A stretch of DNA of 64,000 nt from an uncultured cyanobacterium. Its GTDB lineage: Bacteria > Cyanobacteriota > Cyanobacteriia > Pseudanabaenales > Pseudanabaenaceae. The translations under genes and the position numbers were made by a program. The notes under the pieces are model-generated. The model was not told the origin of the DNA. It saw only the letters and a list, made by a program, of their open reading frames with translations, and did not search any database. Positions 56,994-60,901 of this stretch are shown here, piece after piece (the first letter of the stretch is position 1; every line of letters begins with the position of its first letter). The stretch spans positions 2,368,001 through 2,432,000 of the forward strand of contig OY969811.1 of the NCBI GenBank assembly GCA_963703315.1, in the 5' to 3' direction.

Positions 56994-58193
56994 ATGAGTG
57001 TTTCTGGAATGCAACGAAAACGGGTCTTATTTATTAGCAATGGTCATGGTGAAGACCTGAATGCTTGCGAAGTGCTGAAGGCTTTGCGGCGCAAATCAGA
57101 AGTGGAGGCGATCGCTTTGCCAATTGTGGGAGAGGGTAAGGCATATCGTCAGGCAGGAGTGGCGATCGCAACGCCGACAAAAGCACTACCATCAGGGGGC
57201 TTTGGCTATCTGAGTTTGCGAAAACAAATCGCGGATTTTCAATCAGGATTAATCAATCTCACTTGGCAACAAATTCGCGCTGCTAGGGAATGTGGCAAAA
57301 CCTGTGATTTTGTGTTTGCGACTGGGGATGTGGTTCCTGCGATTTTTGCTTACCTAACGGGATTGCCCTATAGCTTATTTTTAGTCGCTTCATCGGGTTT
57401 TTATGAAAATCGCTATGTGCCGCGTTGGGAACAATCCTTAATCATGCGATCGCGGCGATGTCGCCAGATTTTTGCAAAGGATGACTATAGCGCTCAACTG
57501 CTGCAACAGGGCGGCTACCAAAATGTGAGTTGTTTGGGCTATCCGATTATGGATGTTCTCGAACCAACGGGCAAAGATTTGTGTTTGACACCTAATGTAC
57601 CGATGATTGCGTTACTGACAGGTAGCCGTTTACCTGAAGCCGCCGAAAATTTAGTTTTGCAATTACACCTATGTGTGGCGATCGCCCAAGAATTTGCCCC
57701 CGATCCTGTACAGTTTCGGGCGGCGCTTGTGCCTAGTCTGATGCCGTTATTGCCTGAACTGGCGATCCAAGCTGGTTGGCAATATGCTGATGGCAAACTG
57801 TATTATGAAAATTTAGGTGTTAGCGTTCTCTGTTTTAGTGATGCCTTTCCTGATATTTTGCAGCAATGCGATCTCGTAATTGGCATGGCAGGTACAGCCG
57901 TTGAGCAAGCGGTGGGACTAGGAAAACCAATTGTGCAAATTATCGGCAATGGTCCCCAATTTTCCTATCGATTTGCGGAAGCTCAACAAAGGTTACTGGG
58001 TTTATCAGTACAAACTATTGGCAAAGAACCTGCGACAACTGAGATTTTGCTAGAAGCAGCCAGTTGTATCAAACGGACTCTAGGCGATCGCGAATATCTC
58101 CAACGCTGTCAACAAAATGGATTAGAACGACTTGGCACAAAGGGCGCTTCTGAAAGGTTAGCCGATGCGATCGCTCAACAGTTAGCCAAATAA
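56994..58193 (+). CDS. Lipid-A-disaccharide synthase-related protein (cyanobacterial GT-B family)
   Basis: LFISNGHGED, LPIVGEG..Y, LPSGGF, GSRLPEA, GMAGTAVEQAVGLGKP, GPQF..RFAEAQ.RLLG. Confidence 0.85.
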   Translation: MSVSGMQRKRVLFISNGHGEDLNACEVLKALRRKSEVEAIALPIVGEGKAYRQAGVAIATPTKALPSGGFGYLSLRKQIADFQSGLINLTWQQIRAARECGKTCDFVFATGDVVPAIFAYLTGLPYSLFLVASSGFYENRYVPRWEQSLIMRSRRCRQIFAKDDYSAQLLQQGGYQNVSCLGYPIMDVLEPTGKDLCLTPNVPMIALLTGSRLPEAAENLVLQLHLCVAIAQEFAPDPVQFRAALVPSLMPLLPELAIQAGWQYADGKLYYENLGVSVLCFSDAFPDILQQCDLVIGMAGTAVEQAVGLGKPIVQIIGNGPQFSYRFAEAQQRLLGLSVQTIGKEPATTEILLEAASCIKRTLGDREYLQRCQQNGLERLGTKGASERLADAIAQQLAK

Positions 58194-58227
58194 TCCCCAC
58201 GTAGATACTGTCTTGAGTACCAAAAAG

Positions 58228-59214
58228 TCAAGAGGGAATTTGAACAAAATTTGGGTCGAAAGAACGCTGAGACTTGAGAACGCCAAAGACCTGTCGTAAC
58301 AGCTTGTGCATGACAGCCCCAATGACAGACATTTTGGACTTACCCTTAGCCGTAAGGCGAGCGCAGAAAGCAGCAATCGGCAAATTATAACGACGGGCAA
58401 CAATCGCAGGCATAAACAAAGCTTTACGCAAACGCGAATTACCAATTTTAGATAAACGTGGCTTACCATGAATCGAAGAACCAGATGAGAACTCACGGGG
58501 AGTTAAACCCGCAAAAGCTGCCAGTTGATCAGCAGTATCAAAGGCAGAAATATCCCGAATTTCCGCCAGTAATATAGTTGCGGTCAGTTCAGCAATACCA
58601 GGAATAGAAGTCAACAAATCCCGTTGAGATTTCAAATGAGGGTGTTGATCAAAGTGCTGACGGATCAATTTTTTGGTCATCTCAATTTGCTCTTTGAGAA
58701 AATCAATGTGAGCATTAATTGCCTCAACCAAAATTGGATCAGCCGTAGCAAGACGATTCTGCTCTTGCTGCTGCATAGCAGTTAAGCTATCTAAACGATG
58801 CACCAATGCTTGTAGTTGCTCAATTTCTAATGCTGGTGGTGTCCAAAGAGCAGGTTTTAAGGCTGCACAAAATCTAGCAATGACTTTAGCATCAGCACGG
58901 TCAGTCTTTGTACGACTTAACTCACTCTTGCCAAAGGCTTTGGGACGGGATGGATTAACAATACTTACTTTGTATCCTGCCTCTACTAAGAATCTAGCTA
59001 ACCCATTGCCGTAAGTGCTGGTAGCTTCCATACAACTATGCAAGTTTGTCACATTTTGAAGGTTTAGCCATTCTTGTAATTCAGCAAATCCTTCAGGATT
59101 GTTGGCAAATACTTTGCTCTTGATTTTGGCGTTGCCTTGGATTAGAGCAACATCAAATTTGGCTTTGCTGATATCTATTCCTAAAACATCATATACTTCA
59201 TTGTTATTGTTCAT
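58228..59214 (-). CDS. IS110 family DEDD recombinase/transposase
   Basis: GIDISK, CMEATSTY, VNP, KTDRADA (DEDD), SIPGI, AFAGLTP...SSGSS (catalytic Ser region), KIGNSRLRKAL. Confidence 0.96.
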   Translation of the reverse strand: MNNNNEVYDVLGIDISKAKFDVALIQGNAKIKSKVFANNPEGFAELQEWLNLQNVTNLHSCMEATSTYGNGLARFLVEAGYKVSIVNPSRPKAFGKSELSRTKTDRADAKVIARFCAALKPALWTPPALEIEQLQALVHRLDSLTAMQQQEQNRLATADPILVEAINAHIDFLKEQIEMTKKLIRQHFDQHPHLKSQRDLLTSIPGIAELTATILLAEIRDISAFDTADQLAAFAGLTPREFSSGSSIHGKPRLSKIGNSRLRKALFMPAIVARRYNLPIAAFCARLTAKGKSKMSVIGAVMHKLLRQVFGVLKSQRSFDPNFVQIPS

Positions 59215-59253
59215 TGGGGGCAGTCCTCTTGCTAGATTTGTCCATCAAGCAAT

Positions 59254-59410
59254 CAGTGGTATTGAACTATCCTTGTGAATGCAGGTTTACCCGTTGGGCG
59301 ACCTCTGATACTGTCCAGTCTTTACTTGTTTCCACTGTTTAAGCAGAGACGACTCTATCTACAAAACGGGCTTGGTGTCCCTAGGGGCAGATCGAGTTTA
59401 TCTCTGCTTT
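59254..59410 (-). ncRNA. IS110 bridge RNA (target-binding loop plus donor-binding loop)
   Basis: Stem AAGCAGAGA/TCTCTGCTT encloses TCTGCCCCT and TGTAG; stem CAGTGG/CCACTG encloses ACAGTATC and ACAAG; these match the target and donor; RNA ends approximate. Confidence 0.85.
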
Positions 59411-59466
59411 TGCTTTTTCGGATTGTAGTAAAGATTTTATCCTTTACTTTTCCTCCTAGATACAAG

Positions 59467-59535
59467 GGGCAGAGCATTCCTATAGAAATCAACAAAATTT
59501 CAGGCGATTTTGATTTGGGAATGCTCTGCCCTAAC
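59467..59535. repeat. GTAG-type REP doublet disrupted by the IS110 insertion
   Basis: Removing the IS restores CGT-AG-GGGCAGAGCATTCC...GGGAATGCTCTGCCCTAAC. Confidence 0.8.
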
Positions 59536-59567
59536 CTCGCAACGCAGGGACAATTGATCCCTGAAAT

Positions 59568-59723
59568 CATAAAGGGTTGAGCATTTGCATTGCCAATTTA
59601 TACCAATTCACAAAAGTGTTGTCACACTTTTGTGAATTGGAGACCAAACGCAGTAAGGGTTTTTAGTTCTGGTATTTAGAGGCGTGAGTATAAAGATATT
59701 GGTGCAAATGCTCAACCCCTATG
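59568..59723. repeat. REP-like doublet with nested family B element (59600-59675)
   Basis: CATAAAGGGTTGAGCATTTGCA ... TGCAAATGCTCAACCCCTATG arms enclose ATACCAATTCACAAAAGTG...CTGGTAT. Confidence 0.7.
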
Positions 59724-59801
59724 AGTTTGTTGTTATAAATTAATGATGCGAATAATTTATGACAGTAACGACTTTTTGAATTTTTTAATATAATAAAAAT
59801 C

Positions 59802-59987
59802 ATGCAAAATTCAGATTATTTTGAAGGCTTAACTTGGACAGCCGAAGCCAAGATCAAATATAAAAACATTCCCTACTTTGTGCGATCGCAGGCTCGTCAA
59901 CGCATCGAACAGCTAGCAGTAGCGGCGGGTAGTGATACGATTACGGCTGAAATTGTCGAAAAAGCAAGGGTTGAGTTCGGGCAGTGA
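59802..59987 (+). CDS. PCP reductase (BchB/ChlB C-terminal-like) small domain protein
   Basis: [26 protein letters not shown]...[14 protein letters not shown]. Confidence 0.85.
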
Positions 59988-60901
59988 CAGAAACATCAGG
60001 AAAATCAACGGGCGATCGCGGCTATTTGTTAACAGAACAAGCCAATCCCCACAGCCACAATTTAGATCGGCTCAGTCCTCTCGAAATTGTGGAACTGTTT
60101 AACCAAGAGGATGCTAAAGCTGTTGCCGCCGTAGGACAGGAAAAAGAAGCGATCGCTCAAGCGATTAGTGTCATTGCCGACGCGCTATCCAATGGCGGCA
60201 GATTGTTTTACATTGGCGCTGGGACGAGTGGCAGACTGGGCGTGTTAGATGCGGCGGAATGTCCACCGACTTTTTGCAGTGATCCTGAATTAATTCAGGG
60301 CATCTTAGCGGGCGGTATGAATGCAATGGTGCGTAGTTCTGAAGCCCTTGAAGATCGTGAAGATGATGGCGCAAAGGCAATTTCTGACAGAAATATTAAT
60401 GCCCATGATGTCGTGTTTGGGATCACCGCAGGGGGAACCACACCTTACGTGCATGGAGCGCTCAAAGAAGCTAAAAAACGGGGCGCAAAAACAATCTTTT
60501 TCTGTTGTGTGCCACCTGACCAATTTCCGATCCAGTACGATATCGAGATTCGCCCTCTTGTTGGGGCAGAAATTTTGGCGGGATCAACCAGACTCAAGGC
60601 AGGTACGGCGACGAAATTAGTATTAAATACGATTTCCACAGGCGTAATGGTACAACTGGGCAAAGTTTACGGCAATCGCATGATTGATGTCTCGGTGACA
60701 AATAGTAAACTCGAAGACCGTGCAATTCGGATTATTGGCGATCTCACCTCCCTAAGTCGTGACGATGCTGCAAAATTATTAGAGCGATCGGGCAAGCGGG
60801 TAAAGCTCGCATTGTTAATGCATTGGAAAAGTGTTGATGTTGCTACTGCTGAGAAAATTTTACAAGCGAATCATGGACATTTAGGAAAGGCGATCGCTTA
60901 A
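59984..60901 (+). CDS. murQ: N-acetylmuramic acid 6-phosphate etherase
   Basis: [50 protein letters not shown]. Confidence 0.96.

What the first reader, a model, noticed from the sequence alone, without database searches (positions are those of the whole stretch)
59254..59410. Complete IS110 bridge RNA with guides matching both donor junction and insertion target
Seen on the minus strand: the non-coding 5' end of the IS110 element folds into two large internal loops. Loop 1 (stem AAGCAGAGA/TCTCTGCTT) carries TCTGCCCCT (59391-59383), identical to the flanking target plus core TCTGCCC-CT, and TGTAG (59363-59359), complementary to CTAC(G) on the other flank with one G:U. Loop 2 (stem CAGTGG/CCACTG) carries ACAGTATC (59314-59307), matching the right end, and ACAAG (59276-59272), complementary to CT-TGT at the left end. 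Established: IS110 recombinases such as IS621 use a bispecific bridge RNA of this architecture. As I recall, the IS621 donor is also ACAGTAT-CT-TGTAT. Inference: this is an intact RNA-guided recombinase with a conserved donor but a target loop matched to a cyanobacterial REP, so it is a candidate programmable recombination tool.
Basis: partly seen in the sequence, partly recalled or inferred. Interest (0 to 1): 0.92.

Follow-up and report, generated by a model that had tools for sequence, protein, structure and literature searches.

The report
Bridge RNA of a cyanobacterial IS110
The flagged stretch is a real guide ("bridge") RNA gene of a small jumping gene in a Pseudanabaena cyanobacterium, whose loops spell out both its insertion site and its own joined ends; it is a clean new example of a mechanism described in 2024, not a new kind of system.

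Summary
Observation confirmed at the stated coordinates. On the minus strand lies an intact 1262-bp IS110-group element (59464-58203). Its 328-aa recombinase has both Pfam domains and all five catalytic residues, and matches ISCro4 and IS621 at E 3.5e-76 and 7e-73. Its 250-nt left end folds into a 5' hairpin plus two stem-loops with internal loops.

Loop 1 carries TCTGCCCCT, identical to left flank plus CT core, and UGUAG, which pairs with CT-AC-A/G on the right flank. Loop 2 carries ACAGTATC and ACAAG, matching the joined right and left ends. Handshake bases follow both 3' guides.

The genome holds 7 near-identical copies, all at ...CCC-CT/CT-AC. Five perfect vacant sites exist, all in one palindromic dispersed repeat.

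Among relatives the guides covary with the flanks:
- Left guide: 129 of 154 positions match, against 85.9 when permuted.
- Right guide: 6.19 contiguous pairs, against 2.64.

All 47 proposed base pairs show compensatory changes.

Verdict: a genuine IS621-type bridge RNA, a new member of a known kind. RNA expression and activity are untested, and "programmable tool" is only a plausible extrapolation. This scan has noted bridge RNAs in other genomes before. One possibly undescribed detail is a covarying helix that closes both loops.

The parts
58203..59464 (-). Whole IS110-group element, 1262 bp counting one CT core
   Evidence: 7 copies at about 100% identity in the genome with these ends; lengths 1262-1263
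59467..59473 (-). Left target (LT) TCTGCCC in the flanking repeat arm GGAATGCTCTGCCC
   Evidence: Identical to LTG positions 1-7; 5 of 7 copies have 7/7
59465..59466 (-). Left copy of the CT core
   Evidence: CT at both junctions of all 7 copies
59428..59447 (-). 5' stem-loop GUAAAG...CUUUAC
   Evidence: helix 1; 82.2% paired, 6 of 6 pairs with double changes
59410..59415 (-). 5' strand (AAGCAA) of a closing helix P0
59341..59409 (-). Target-binding loop module: outer stem AAGCAGAGA/UCUCUGCUU, inner stem ACUC (59397-59394)/GAGU (59355-59352), small hairpin GGG (59381-59379)/CCC (59370-59368)
   Evidence: Helices 3-5: 88.9-96.1% paired in A1, 90.3-95.5% in A3; 8 of 9 outer-stem pairs with compensatory change
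59383..59391 (-). Left target guide (LTG) UCUGCCC+CU, same sense as the top strand, so it pairs with the bottom strand of LT+core
   Evidence: covariation
59359..59366 (-). Right target guide UUU-UGUAG; GUAG pairs CT-AC, U pairs A or wobbles with G, UUU is a possible extension
59357..59358 (-). Handshake bases AU of loop 1, complementary to the last two donor bases (A,T) before the core
   Evidence: Read against the scheme in PMC11208158; AT in 38 of 42 relatives
59254..59337 (-). Donor-binding loop module: outer stem CAGUGG/CCACUG, inner stem GACUG (59320-59316)/UAGUU (59269-59265), hairpin AGGU (59304-59301)...ACCU (59286-59283)
   Evidence: Helices 6-9 (90.0-97.2% paired in A3)
59307..59314 (-). 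Left donor guide ACAGUAUC = right end ACAGTAT + first core base
   Evidence: conserved as ACAGTATC or ACGGTATC in relatives
59272..59276 (-). Right donor guide ACAAG, complementary to CT-TGT of the joined ends; the next base G (59271) can pair with target position 7 (C) as a handshake base
   Evidence: invariant in A1
59247..59252 (-). 3' strand (UUGCUU) of closing helix P0; the same bases can instead form a hairpin with 59232-59228 just before the Shine-Dalgarno sequence
58228..59214 (-). Recombinase ORF, 328 aa, catalytic D14 E63 D105 D108 S244; GAGGA 59228-59224 upstream
   Evidence: 7 of 7 copies full length without stops
58203..58231 (-). Right end: -35-like TTGACT 58231-58226 (and TTGGTA 58223-58218), left donor ACAGTAT 58211-58205, core CT 58204-58203
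   Evidence: TTGAC present in 42 of 43 right ends of relatives
58201..58202 (-). Right target AC
   Evidence: AC in 7 of 7 copies

Best explanation
This is the bridge RNA gene of an active IS110-group insertion sequence of the IS621/ISCro4 type.

Inferred life cycle, by homology with IS621:
1. The element excises as a circle. This joins the right end (...ACAGTAT-CT) to the left end (TGTAT...).
2. The join places a -35 box from the right end in front of a -10 box at the junction. The candidates are TTGACT-18 nt-TATCTT or TTGGTA-17 nt-TATCTA.
3. An RNA of roughly 200 nt is transcribed from the left end and is bound by the DEDD/Ser recombinase.
4. Loop 2 holds the circle junction. ACAGUAUC pairs with the bottom strand, and ACAAG pairs with the top strand CT-TGT.
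5. Loop 1 holds the chromosomal site TCTGCCC-CT-AC(A/G). UCUGCCCCU pairs with the bottom strand, and UGUAG pairs with the top strand.
6. Strands are exchanged at the CT core. The handshake bases (AU after UGUAG, G after ACAAG) pair with the partner DNA after the first exchange.

Shown here: element anatomy, the guide matches, 7 copies at matching sites, guide-flank covariation, structure covariation, and conserved catalytic residues. Inferred only: that the RNA is made, that the recombinase binds it, and that recombination occurs.
For: Protein:
- PF01548 8.5e-27 and PF02371 1.4e-26.
- phmmer to ISCro4 3.5e-76 and IS621 7e-73 over residues 9/10-321.
- D14, E63, D105, D108 and S244 align with the IS621 catalytic residues named in PMC11208158.

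Copies:
- 7 copies at about 100% identity, 7 of 7 with intact ORFs.
- 5 of 7 have LT 7/7, one has 6/7 and one 5/7.
- 7 of 7 have the CT core and RT AC; the next base is A in 4 and G in 3.
- 5 vacant TCTGCCCCTAC sites (1.17 expected), all inside one repeat family. Its arm GGAATGCTCTGCCC occurs 29 times against 0.02 expected.

Guide covariation:
- 22 distinct LTG/LT pairs match at 129 of 154 positions, against 85.9 +/- 5.5 permuted (0 of 20000).
- 10 of 12 guide variants have a perfect 7/7 flank.
- 42 distinct RTG/RT pairs from metagenomic and genomic relatives give 6.19 contiguous Watson-Crick pairs, against 2.64 +/- 0.17 (0 of 10000).

Structure:
- 17 left ends: 91.0% of cells paired; 18 pairs with changes on both sides against 7.7 +/- 2.0 in shuffles; slid controls at most 50.9% paired.
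- A covariance model built from them hit 66 of 86 loci, always on the coding strand just upstream of the ORF.
- On that alignment 90.8% of cells are paired against 60.2% shuffled, and 47 of 47 pairs show changes on both sides (the alignment is fitted to the model).

Layout agrees with the IS621 description: 8-9 nt on the 5' side pairing with the bottom strand, 4-7 nt on the 3' side pairing with the top strand, and a 5' hairpin followed by two stem-loops (PMC11208160, passages; PMC11208158, section 7).
Against: - No direct evidence that the RNA exists. The consensus scan found no sigma-70-like promoter on the element's strand in the integrated state, and the junction promoter is read by eye.
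- RNA-library contigs cover the left end but cannot show a transcript, its strand or its ends.
- No Rfam family matched at E up to 1, so there is no independent curated model score.
- I could not obtain IS621 DNA for a direct RNA alignment.
- 2 of 7 copies sit at imperfect left targets.
- Among relatives, 2 of 12 guide variants have no perfect flank, and three insertions fit badly: L021 3/7, L019 4/7, L040 1/7.
- The bases of the right guide beyond GUAG do not match the consensus of the host repeat (CTACGGTT), so only 4 pairs plus a wobble are used at most sites.
Confidence: 0.93

Rival explanations
1. The recombinase finds its site by protein-DNA recognition alone. The left end would then be only a 5' UTR and promoter region, and its matches to the ends would be protein-bound subterminal repeats (the view held before 2024).
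For: ACAGTATC and ACAAG are copies or complements of the element's own ends, as subterminal repeats would be. No RNA has been shown.
Against: The loop-1 guides match DNA outside the element and change together with it in relatives. The helices around the guides keep pairing through compensatory changes, which points to selection on an RNA rather than on a DNA site. The close homologue IS621 needs the RNA in vitro (PMC11208160, passage).
Confidence: 0.02
2. The bridge RNA is genuine but the element is no longer mobile in this genome, so the copies are relics.
For: Transposition was not observed. No orthologous empty site could be recovered, because the nearest genomes are only about 80% identical in the neighbouring gene and the matches stop at the gene end.
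Against: 7 copies at about 100% identity with intact ORFs, differing only by one C in a C-run and one base, indicate recent spread. Perfect vacant targets remain.
Confidence: 0.04
3. The loop-1 match is a by-product: a piece of the target repeat was captured into the left end by imprecise excision or recombination, and it has no guiding role.
For: The host repeat is abundant (29 arms) and one copy of its terminal 9-mer lies inside the element.
Against: Only 9 nt are shared, exactly in the 5' side of a conserved internal loop. 12 different guide variants occupy the same columns and 10 of them have perfectly matching flanks. The right guide independently tracks the other flank.
Confidence: 0.01

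Closest known systems
IS621 bridge RNA and recombinase (IS110 group; Durrant et al. 2024, PMC11208160, passages read; Hiraizumi et al. 2024, PMC11208158, section 7 and passages read)
   Same: - Both Pfam domains and the D-E-D-D-S residues.
- Long left end and short right end.
- A 5' hairpin plus a target loop and a donor loop.
- 9-nt left guide in the sense of the top strand and a right guide pairing with the top strand.
- CT core.
- Right target AC (IS621 wild-type target ATCAGGCCTAC).
- AU handshake bases after the right target guide (IS621 A81/U82).
- The G of the linker before each guide.
- Donor 14-mer ACAGTAT-CT-TGTAT, the same string as in the IS621 donor oligo of PMC13396178.
- A repeated palindromic target.
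- A -35 box in the right end.
   Different: - Host phylum: Cyanobacteria (Pseudanabaena).
- The recombinase is only distantly similar (E 7e-73; no DNA match to 5,426 E. coli genomes).
- Left target TCTGCCC in place of ATCAGGC.
- The left-end RNA region is longer than the 177 nt described for IS621. There is an 18-nt linker between the 5' hairpin and the target loop, an extra outer stem on the donor module (CAGUGG/CCACUG), and a helix P0 closing both modules. I could not test whether IS621 has these.
ISCro4 / IS622 (Perry et al. preprint 10.1101/2025.05.14.653916, passages read; PDB 9t56)
   Same: Best PDB sequence match (3.5e-76). It has the same two-loop bridge RNA with handshake guides.
   Different: ISCro4 is 88% identical to IS621 and comes from Citrobacter. 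The present protein is far more distant, and its activity is unknown.
IS1111 group / seekRNA elements
   Same: The same DEDD recombinase family, with RNA-guided target and donor recognition.
   Different: IS1111 elements have long right ends, short left ends and 7-17 bp subterminal inverted repeats (PMC11208160, section 12 passage). Here the left end is 250 nt, the right end 25 nt, and the RNA lies upstream of the gene.
ISPpu9 / ISPpu10 of Pseudomonas putida (PMC12288879 and 10.64898/2026.03.19.712850; abstracts in search listing only)
   Same: IS110 elements present in several copies and inserted into repetitive extragenic palindromic or conserved intergenic sequences.
   Different: Different host, target and RNA arrangement. 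ISPpu9 has an sRNA gene downstream of the transposase.

Membership tests
IS110-group bridge recombinase system (IS621 type) | [quoted passage not shown] | tested here: met
   (8.5e-27; 1.4e-26). alignment gives D14, E63, D105, D108 and S244, opposite the IS621 residues named.
IS110-group bridge recombinase system (IS621 type) | Long non-coding left end upstream of the CDS, short right end | tested here: met
   Left end 59464-59215 = 250 nt; right end 58227-58203 = 25 nt.
IS110-group bridge recombinase system (IS621 type) | [quoted passage not shown] | tested here: met
   (91.0% paired, 18 pairs with double changes). (47 of 47 pairs with double changes, 90.8% paired against 60.2% shuffled).
IS110-group bridge recombinase system (IS621 type) | 5' side of loop 1 matches left target + core; 3' side is complementary to core + right target | tested here: met
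   In the genome, 5 of 7 copies are 7/7 and 7 of 7 have CT-AC.
IS110-group bridge recombinase system (IS621 type) | Loop 2 matches the junction of right and left ends in the same two-strand manner | tested here: met
   ACAGTATC = right end + C; ACAAG is complementary to CT-TGT. Both are conserved in relatives.
IS110-group bridge recombinase system (IS621 type) | Guides covary with target flanks across related elements | tested here: met
   (129 of 154 against 85.9 +/- 5.5, 0 of 20000). (6.19 against 2.64 +/- 0.17, 0 of 10000).
IS110-group bridge recombinase system (IS621 type) | Recombination at a short core present once at each junction, with no target duplication | tested here: met
   CT at both ends of 7 of 7 copies. 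Vacant paralogous sites read GCTCTGCCC-CT-ACGGTTCTATTCTA, and an occupied copy has the same repeat split around the element.
IS110-group bridge recombinase system (IS621 type) | Handshake guides 3' of the right guides | tested here: met
   AU after UGUAG pairs with donor ...AT. G after ACAAG pairs with target C7 (read). AT is present in 38 of 42 relatives.
IS110-group bridge recombinase system (IS621 type) | Promoter rebuilt across the junction of the circular form | tested here: inconclusive
   TTGAC occurs in 42 of 43 right ends. Here the candidates are TTGACT-18-TATCTT or TTGGTA-17-TATCTA, read by eye. No promoter was found on this strand in the integrated state. Function was not tested.
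IS110-group bridge recombinase system (IS621 type) | RNA is expressed, binds the recombinase and is required for recombination | not testable with these tools
   Only contigs of RNA libraries cover the left end; this does not show a transcript.
IS110-group bridge recombinase system (IS621 type) | Score against a curated bridge-RNA covariance model | not testable with these tools
   No Rfam 15 family matched at E up to 1 in 57800-60000. The model of Durrant et al. is not held here.
IS1111 group (seekRNA) | Long right end carrying the RNA, short left end, 7-17 bp subterminal inverted repeats | tested here: not met
   The right end is 25 nt, the left end 250 nt, and the RNA lies upstream of the CDS.

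The most novel reading that the evidence does not exclude
In this element and many relatives the bridge RNA may not be an open string of hairpins. It may be a closed junction.

A helix P0 (AAGCAA 59415-59410 with UUGCUU 59252-59247) pairs the linker before the target loop with the bases just after the donor module. The donor module also has an extra outer stem.

P0 covaries across recombinases from 39 to 96% identical. Own-pair duplex energy is -8.75 kcal/mol against -5.40 +/- 0.28 for permuted partners (0 of 10000). All 6 pairs have compensatory changes.

Its 3' strand can alternatively form a hairpin right before the Shine-Dalgarno sequence. RNA folding could therefore be coupled to translation of the recombinase or to 3'-end formation.

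The IS621 texts I read describe 5' hairpin 1-33, target loop 34-98 and donor loop 110-177, with no such helix. The words 'closing stem', 'basal stem' and 'multi-branch' occur in none of the 12 bridge-RNA papers listed. Figures could not be seen.
Probability: 0.3. Interest if true: 0.45.

Novelty: new member of a known kind. Interest (0 to 1): 0.3.

Why it matters
It gives a fully annotated natural bridge-RNA system from cyanobacteria. All four guides, the handshake bases, the target repeat, and both occupied and vacant sites can be read in one complete genome.

Within one genus there is also a series of at least 12 natural left-guide variants that track different repeat variants. This is a small natural experiment in guide reprogramming.

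It could be tried as an orthologue for genome engineering in cyanobacteria. It does not change what is known about the mechanism.

The covarying closing helix, if confirmed and not already described, would refine the structural model of these RNAs.

Tried and rejected
- **Rfam scan** of 57800-60000 at E up to 1: only a chance PhrS hit inside the ORF (E 0.5). No bridge-RNA family matched.
- **Getting IS621 DNA for a direct RNA alignment.**
  - blastn of the element against 5,426 E. coli genomes found nothing.
  - tblastn against plasmids gave 1222 records, all under 60% identity.
  - The best E. coli hit, L061, is not IS621 (6.2e-72 to it), and its left end did not resemble this one. The covariance model did not hit it either: L061 is among the 20 of 86 loci without a match.
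- **Orthologous empty site.** The neighbouring gene is only 71-81% identical in 47 other genomes of the genus and the matches end at the gene, so no empty site could be aligned. Paralogous vacant sites were used instead.
- **RNA evidence.** Of the 20 runs listed, the best RNA run holds 0.48 of the sampled words. Laying 4 runs (all contigs) showed pieces covering 59163-59470 and parts of the ORF, several from variants with other flanks. There were no joints and no ends. This shows neither transcription, nor strand, nor a circle junction.
- **Promoter and terminator scan.** It found one promoter-like site on the opposite strand inside the ORF and no terminator. It was not informative.
- **RNAalifold on 17 left ends.** It recovered the target-loop helices, the inner donor stem and P0. 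It missed the CAGUGG/CCACUG stem and paired a few guide bases with each other. I tested my own structure instead.
- **First regex extraction of guides.** It missed many loci and was replaced by an alignment-based table. In that table I corrected two rows by eye, the L021 left-end start and a one-column shift in L062.
- **Earlier notes of this scan.** None for this genome. Eight on other genomes were unrelated DNA and did not change my reading.
- **Literature.** No paper holds both 'Pseudanabaena' and 'IS110'. Only two general papers hold IS110, cyanobacteri* and bridge RNA together. Supplementary tables of Durrant et al. were not opened, so I cannot say whether this element is already in their list.

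Full report
**1. What is there**

Read on the minus strand, the region is an insertion sequence bounded by ...GGAATGCTCTGCCC-CT|TGTATCTAGG... on the left and ...CTCAAGACAGTAT-CT|ACGTGGGG... on the right.
- Left side: left target 59473-59467, core 59466-59465, left end from 59464.
- Right side: 58211-58205, core 58204-58203, right target 58202-58201.
- Counting one CT, the element is 1262 bp.

It holds one ORF (59214-58228, 328 aa). The ORF has Pfam DEDD_Tnp_IS110 (8.5e-27) and Transposase_20 (1.4e-26).

Against PDB sequences the best matches are the ISCro4 transposase (3.5e-76) and the IS621 transposase (7e-73), over residues 9/10 to 321. In that alignment D14, E63, D105, D108 and S244 stand opposite the residues that Hiraizumi et al. 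name as catalytic in IS621: D11, E60, D102, D105 and S241. The PDB chain numbering is shifted by two.

Record titles of close relatives place the host in Pseudanabaena.

**2. The observation**

- TCTGCCCCT occurs only twice in the window: at the left junction and in loop 1. The window-wide expectation is 0.44.
- ACAGTATC occurs four times, two of them the right end and loop 2.
- The single-sequence fold of 59215-59464 (-66.7 kcal/mol, z -2.71) contains both outer stems and a 5' hairpin. It also pairs the two loop-1 guides with each other. That is expected, because they flank the same core, but it means the open-loop picture needs comparative support.

**3. Copies in the same genome**

The complete genome (4.57 Mb, one contig) has 7 copies at about 100% identity. 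All have full-length ORFs.

Their flanks:

| Feature | Result |
|---|---|
| Left flank GCTCTGCCC-CT | 5 of 7 copies |
| Left flank GCTCTACCC-CT | 1 copy |
| Left flank AGTATTCCC-CT | 1 copy |
| Right flank CT-AC | 7 of 7 copies |
| Base after CT-AC | A in 4, G in 3 |

UGUAG pairs perfectly with CTACA, and with one G:U wobble with CTACG.

There are 5 vacant TCTGCCCCTAC sites (1.17 expected), and all extend to GCTCTGCCCCTAC. Every one lies at the end of the same dispersed repeat, whose arm GGAATGCTCTGCCC occurs 29 times against 0.02 expected.

The repeat is palindromic. Arms GGGCAGAGCATTCC and GGAATGCTCTGCCC lie about 37 nt apart. One end reads ...CCC-CT-AC(G)GTTCTATTCTA; the other continues into a conserved extension.

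An occupied copy has the same repeat split exactly around the element, as GGAATGCTCTGCCC-CT ... CT-ACAGTTCTATTC. So the ends and the single core are well defined. 'REP-like target' is a fair description.

**4. Relatives: do the guides follow the flanks?**

Searches used:
- 71 genomes of the order: matches in 12, all in one genus.
- One genome per species of GTDB: 23 loci.
- Plasmids: a 59% identical copy in Leptolyngbya boryana.
- Metagenomes: 80 loci, 39-96% identical.

In the aligned left ends, the nine bases in the position of UCUGCCCCU differ between lineages and equal the left flank. The perfect cases are TCTGCCC, TTTGCCC, TCAACCC, TAAACCC, ACAGCCC, GCAGCCC, CCCGCCC, ATTATGC, ATTGCCC and ACCGCGA.

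Over 22 distinct guide/flank pairs, 129 of 154 positions agree, against 85.9 +/- 5.5 when flanks are permuted (0 of 20000). At the four variable positions the figures are 68 of 88 against 34.9. Ten of 12 guide variants have a perfect flank.

Misses:
- L021 3/7, L019 4/7 and L040 1/7.
- Several 5/7 and 6/7 cases, including two of the seven copies of this genome.

The right guide was tested on 42 distinct pairs from the wider set. The mean run of Watson-Crick pairs from the core outward is 6.19 against 2.64 +/- 0.17 permuted (0 of 10000). In 24 of 42 pairs the run is exactly 7, that is core plus five.

These are kin, so the permutation figures are descriptive.

**5. Structure**

On 17 left ends (A1) I tested a 47-pair structure consisting of:
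- the 5' hairpin;
- a closing helix P0;
- the target module, with outer stem, inner stem and small hairpin;
- the donor module, with outer stem, inner stem and two-part hairpin.

Results on A1:
- 91.0% of cells pair.
- 18 pairs change on both sides, against 7.7 +/- 2.0 in shuffles (0 of 500).
- Slid controls reach at most 50.9% paired.
- 8 of 9 pairs of the target outer stem show compensatory change.

A covariance model built from A1 matched 66 of 86 loci, always on the coding strand directly upstream of the ORF.

On that alignment:
- 63 rows are distinct.
- 90.8% of cells pair, against 60.2% shuffled and at most 45.2% when slid.
- All 47 pairs show changes on both sides.

This alignment is fitted to the model and therefore leans towards it.

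**6. Comparison with IS621**

The papers describe:
- a 5' stem-loop and two stem-loops with internal loops;
- the 3' side pairing 4-7 nt with the top strand;
- a CT core;
- REP targets;
- a promoter rebuilt across the junction with its -35 box in the right end;
- a more conserved second loop (PMC11208160, passages).

They also give the layout target loop 34-98 and donor loop 110-177, with linkers and handshake bases 81-82 and 166-167, of which A81/U82 are wild type (PMC11208158).

The present element agrees on each point:
- The linkers CG-A before the left target guide, and G-U after the small hairpin, parallel C47-U49 and G72-U73.
- GG before ACAGUAUC parallels G121-G122.
- AU follows UGUAG and can pair with the donor's ...AT after strand exchange.
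- G follows ACAAG and can pair with target C7.

The IS621 wild-type target is ATCAGGCCTAC. The core CT and right target AC are therefore shared, and only the left target differs.

The donor 14-mer here is the string embedded in the IS621 donor oligo of PMC13396178.

Donor guides are nearly constant across all relatives, as ACAGTATC or ACGGTATC together with CAAG.

TTGAC is present in 42 of 43 right ends. In most relatives it lies 17 nt from TATCTA at left-end positions 3-8. This clade has 8 extra bases. That leaves TTGACT-18-TATCTT across the junction, or TTGGTA-17-TATCTA. Both are read by eye.

**7. What is not shown**

No tool here shows the RNA, its ends, recombinase binding or recombination.
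- Contigs from RNA libraries of one freshwater study cover the left end. Contigs cannot prove transcription.
- No Rfam family exists or matched.
- IS621 DNA could not be fetched for a direct RNA alignment.

**8. Verdict and novelty**

This is a bridge RNA of an IS621-type IS110 element.

The kind is known. Durrant et al. predicted thousands of such RNAs, and a later preprint screened 72 orthologues. I found no paper naming a Pseudanabaena IS110. I did not open the supplementary lists. I therefore class it as a new member of a known kind, with modest interest.

'Programmable tool' is a reasonable thing to test but nothing more. This scan has already reported bridge RNAs on other genomes.

**9. 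A detail that may be new**

A helix P0 pairs AAGCAA (59415-59410) with UUGCUU (59252-59247). It encloses both modules.

RNAalifold proposed it without prompting. It covaries in distant relatives with entirely different sequences, for example GGGTAAA/TTTACCC, CAGGGTAG/CTACCCTG and ACCGCAG/CTGCGGT.

In a test that uses the alignment only for the anchors, own-pair duplex energy is -8.75 against -5.40 +/- 0.28 kcal/mol for permuted partners (0 of 10000). Forty-seven of 63 sequences reach -6 or better, against 35% of cross pairs.

The same 3' strand can fold into a hairpin next to the Shine-Dalgarno sequence.

The IS621 texts I read do not mention such a helix. I could not see the figures or test IS621 itself.

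Noticed in passing
window 59410-59415 with 59247-59252 (minus strand); alternative hairpin 59228-59252: A covarying helix P0 closes the target and donor modules. Its 3' strand can instead pair downstream, just before the GAGGA ribosome-binding site, so a structural switch is possible.
   Followed up: partly
genome G000:C1 2714873-2717577 and 3075042-3077751 (outside the window): Two loci each carry two copies of the element head to head, left ends facing, about 150 bp apart. The copies are inserted into two adjacent palindromic repeats of slightly different sequence (GGAATGCTCTGCCC and GCAAATGCTCT[G/A]CCC arms).
   Followed up: partly
genome G000:C1 about 4256264-4256335 (outside the window): The arm of the target repeat is almost identical to the D-arm/anticodon-stem part of a tRNA-Thr(GGT) gene (GGAATGCTCTACCC-CT-GA). 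The repeat family may derive from a tRNA. The tRNA itself differs from the target at the right flank.
   Followed up: partly
L040:933-1175 and L048:960-1164 (same metagenome-assembled genome): An element with left guide GAAACCC sits at a flank ACCGCGA-CT (1 of 7 match). That flank matches perfectly the guide of a second, 69% identical element in the same assembly. Both share the same donor. This is either guiding in trans by a co-resident element's RNA or an assembly chimera.
   Followed up: no
L007 (own genome, 3868925), L021, L009: Insertions with poor left-target matches (5/7, 3/7, 5/7) have long right-guide pairing (7, 8 with one wobble, and 7 contiguous pairs). The extended right guide UUUUGUAG may compensate. 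The sample is small and the trend weak.
   Followed up: no
window 58203-58231 (minus strand) and loci: This clade has 8 extra bases between the conserved TTGAC of the right end and ACAGTAT, compared with most relatives. In the integrated state TTGACT-18 nt-TATCTA also points outward into the flank, antisense to the neighbouring ORF 56994-58193.
   Followed up: no
window 59216-59220 and the other six copies: The C-run between the ribosome-binding site and the ATG is 5 C in some copies and 6 C in others (element length 1262 against 1263). This is the main difference among the seven copies.
   Followed up: no
L045:881-1210 (Chamaesiphon MAG): One of four Chamaesiphon copies has lost the 5' hairpin and target module, which are replaced by unrelated sequence. 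It keeps the donor module and the ORF, so it is a copy that could only be guided in trans.
   Followed up: no
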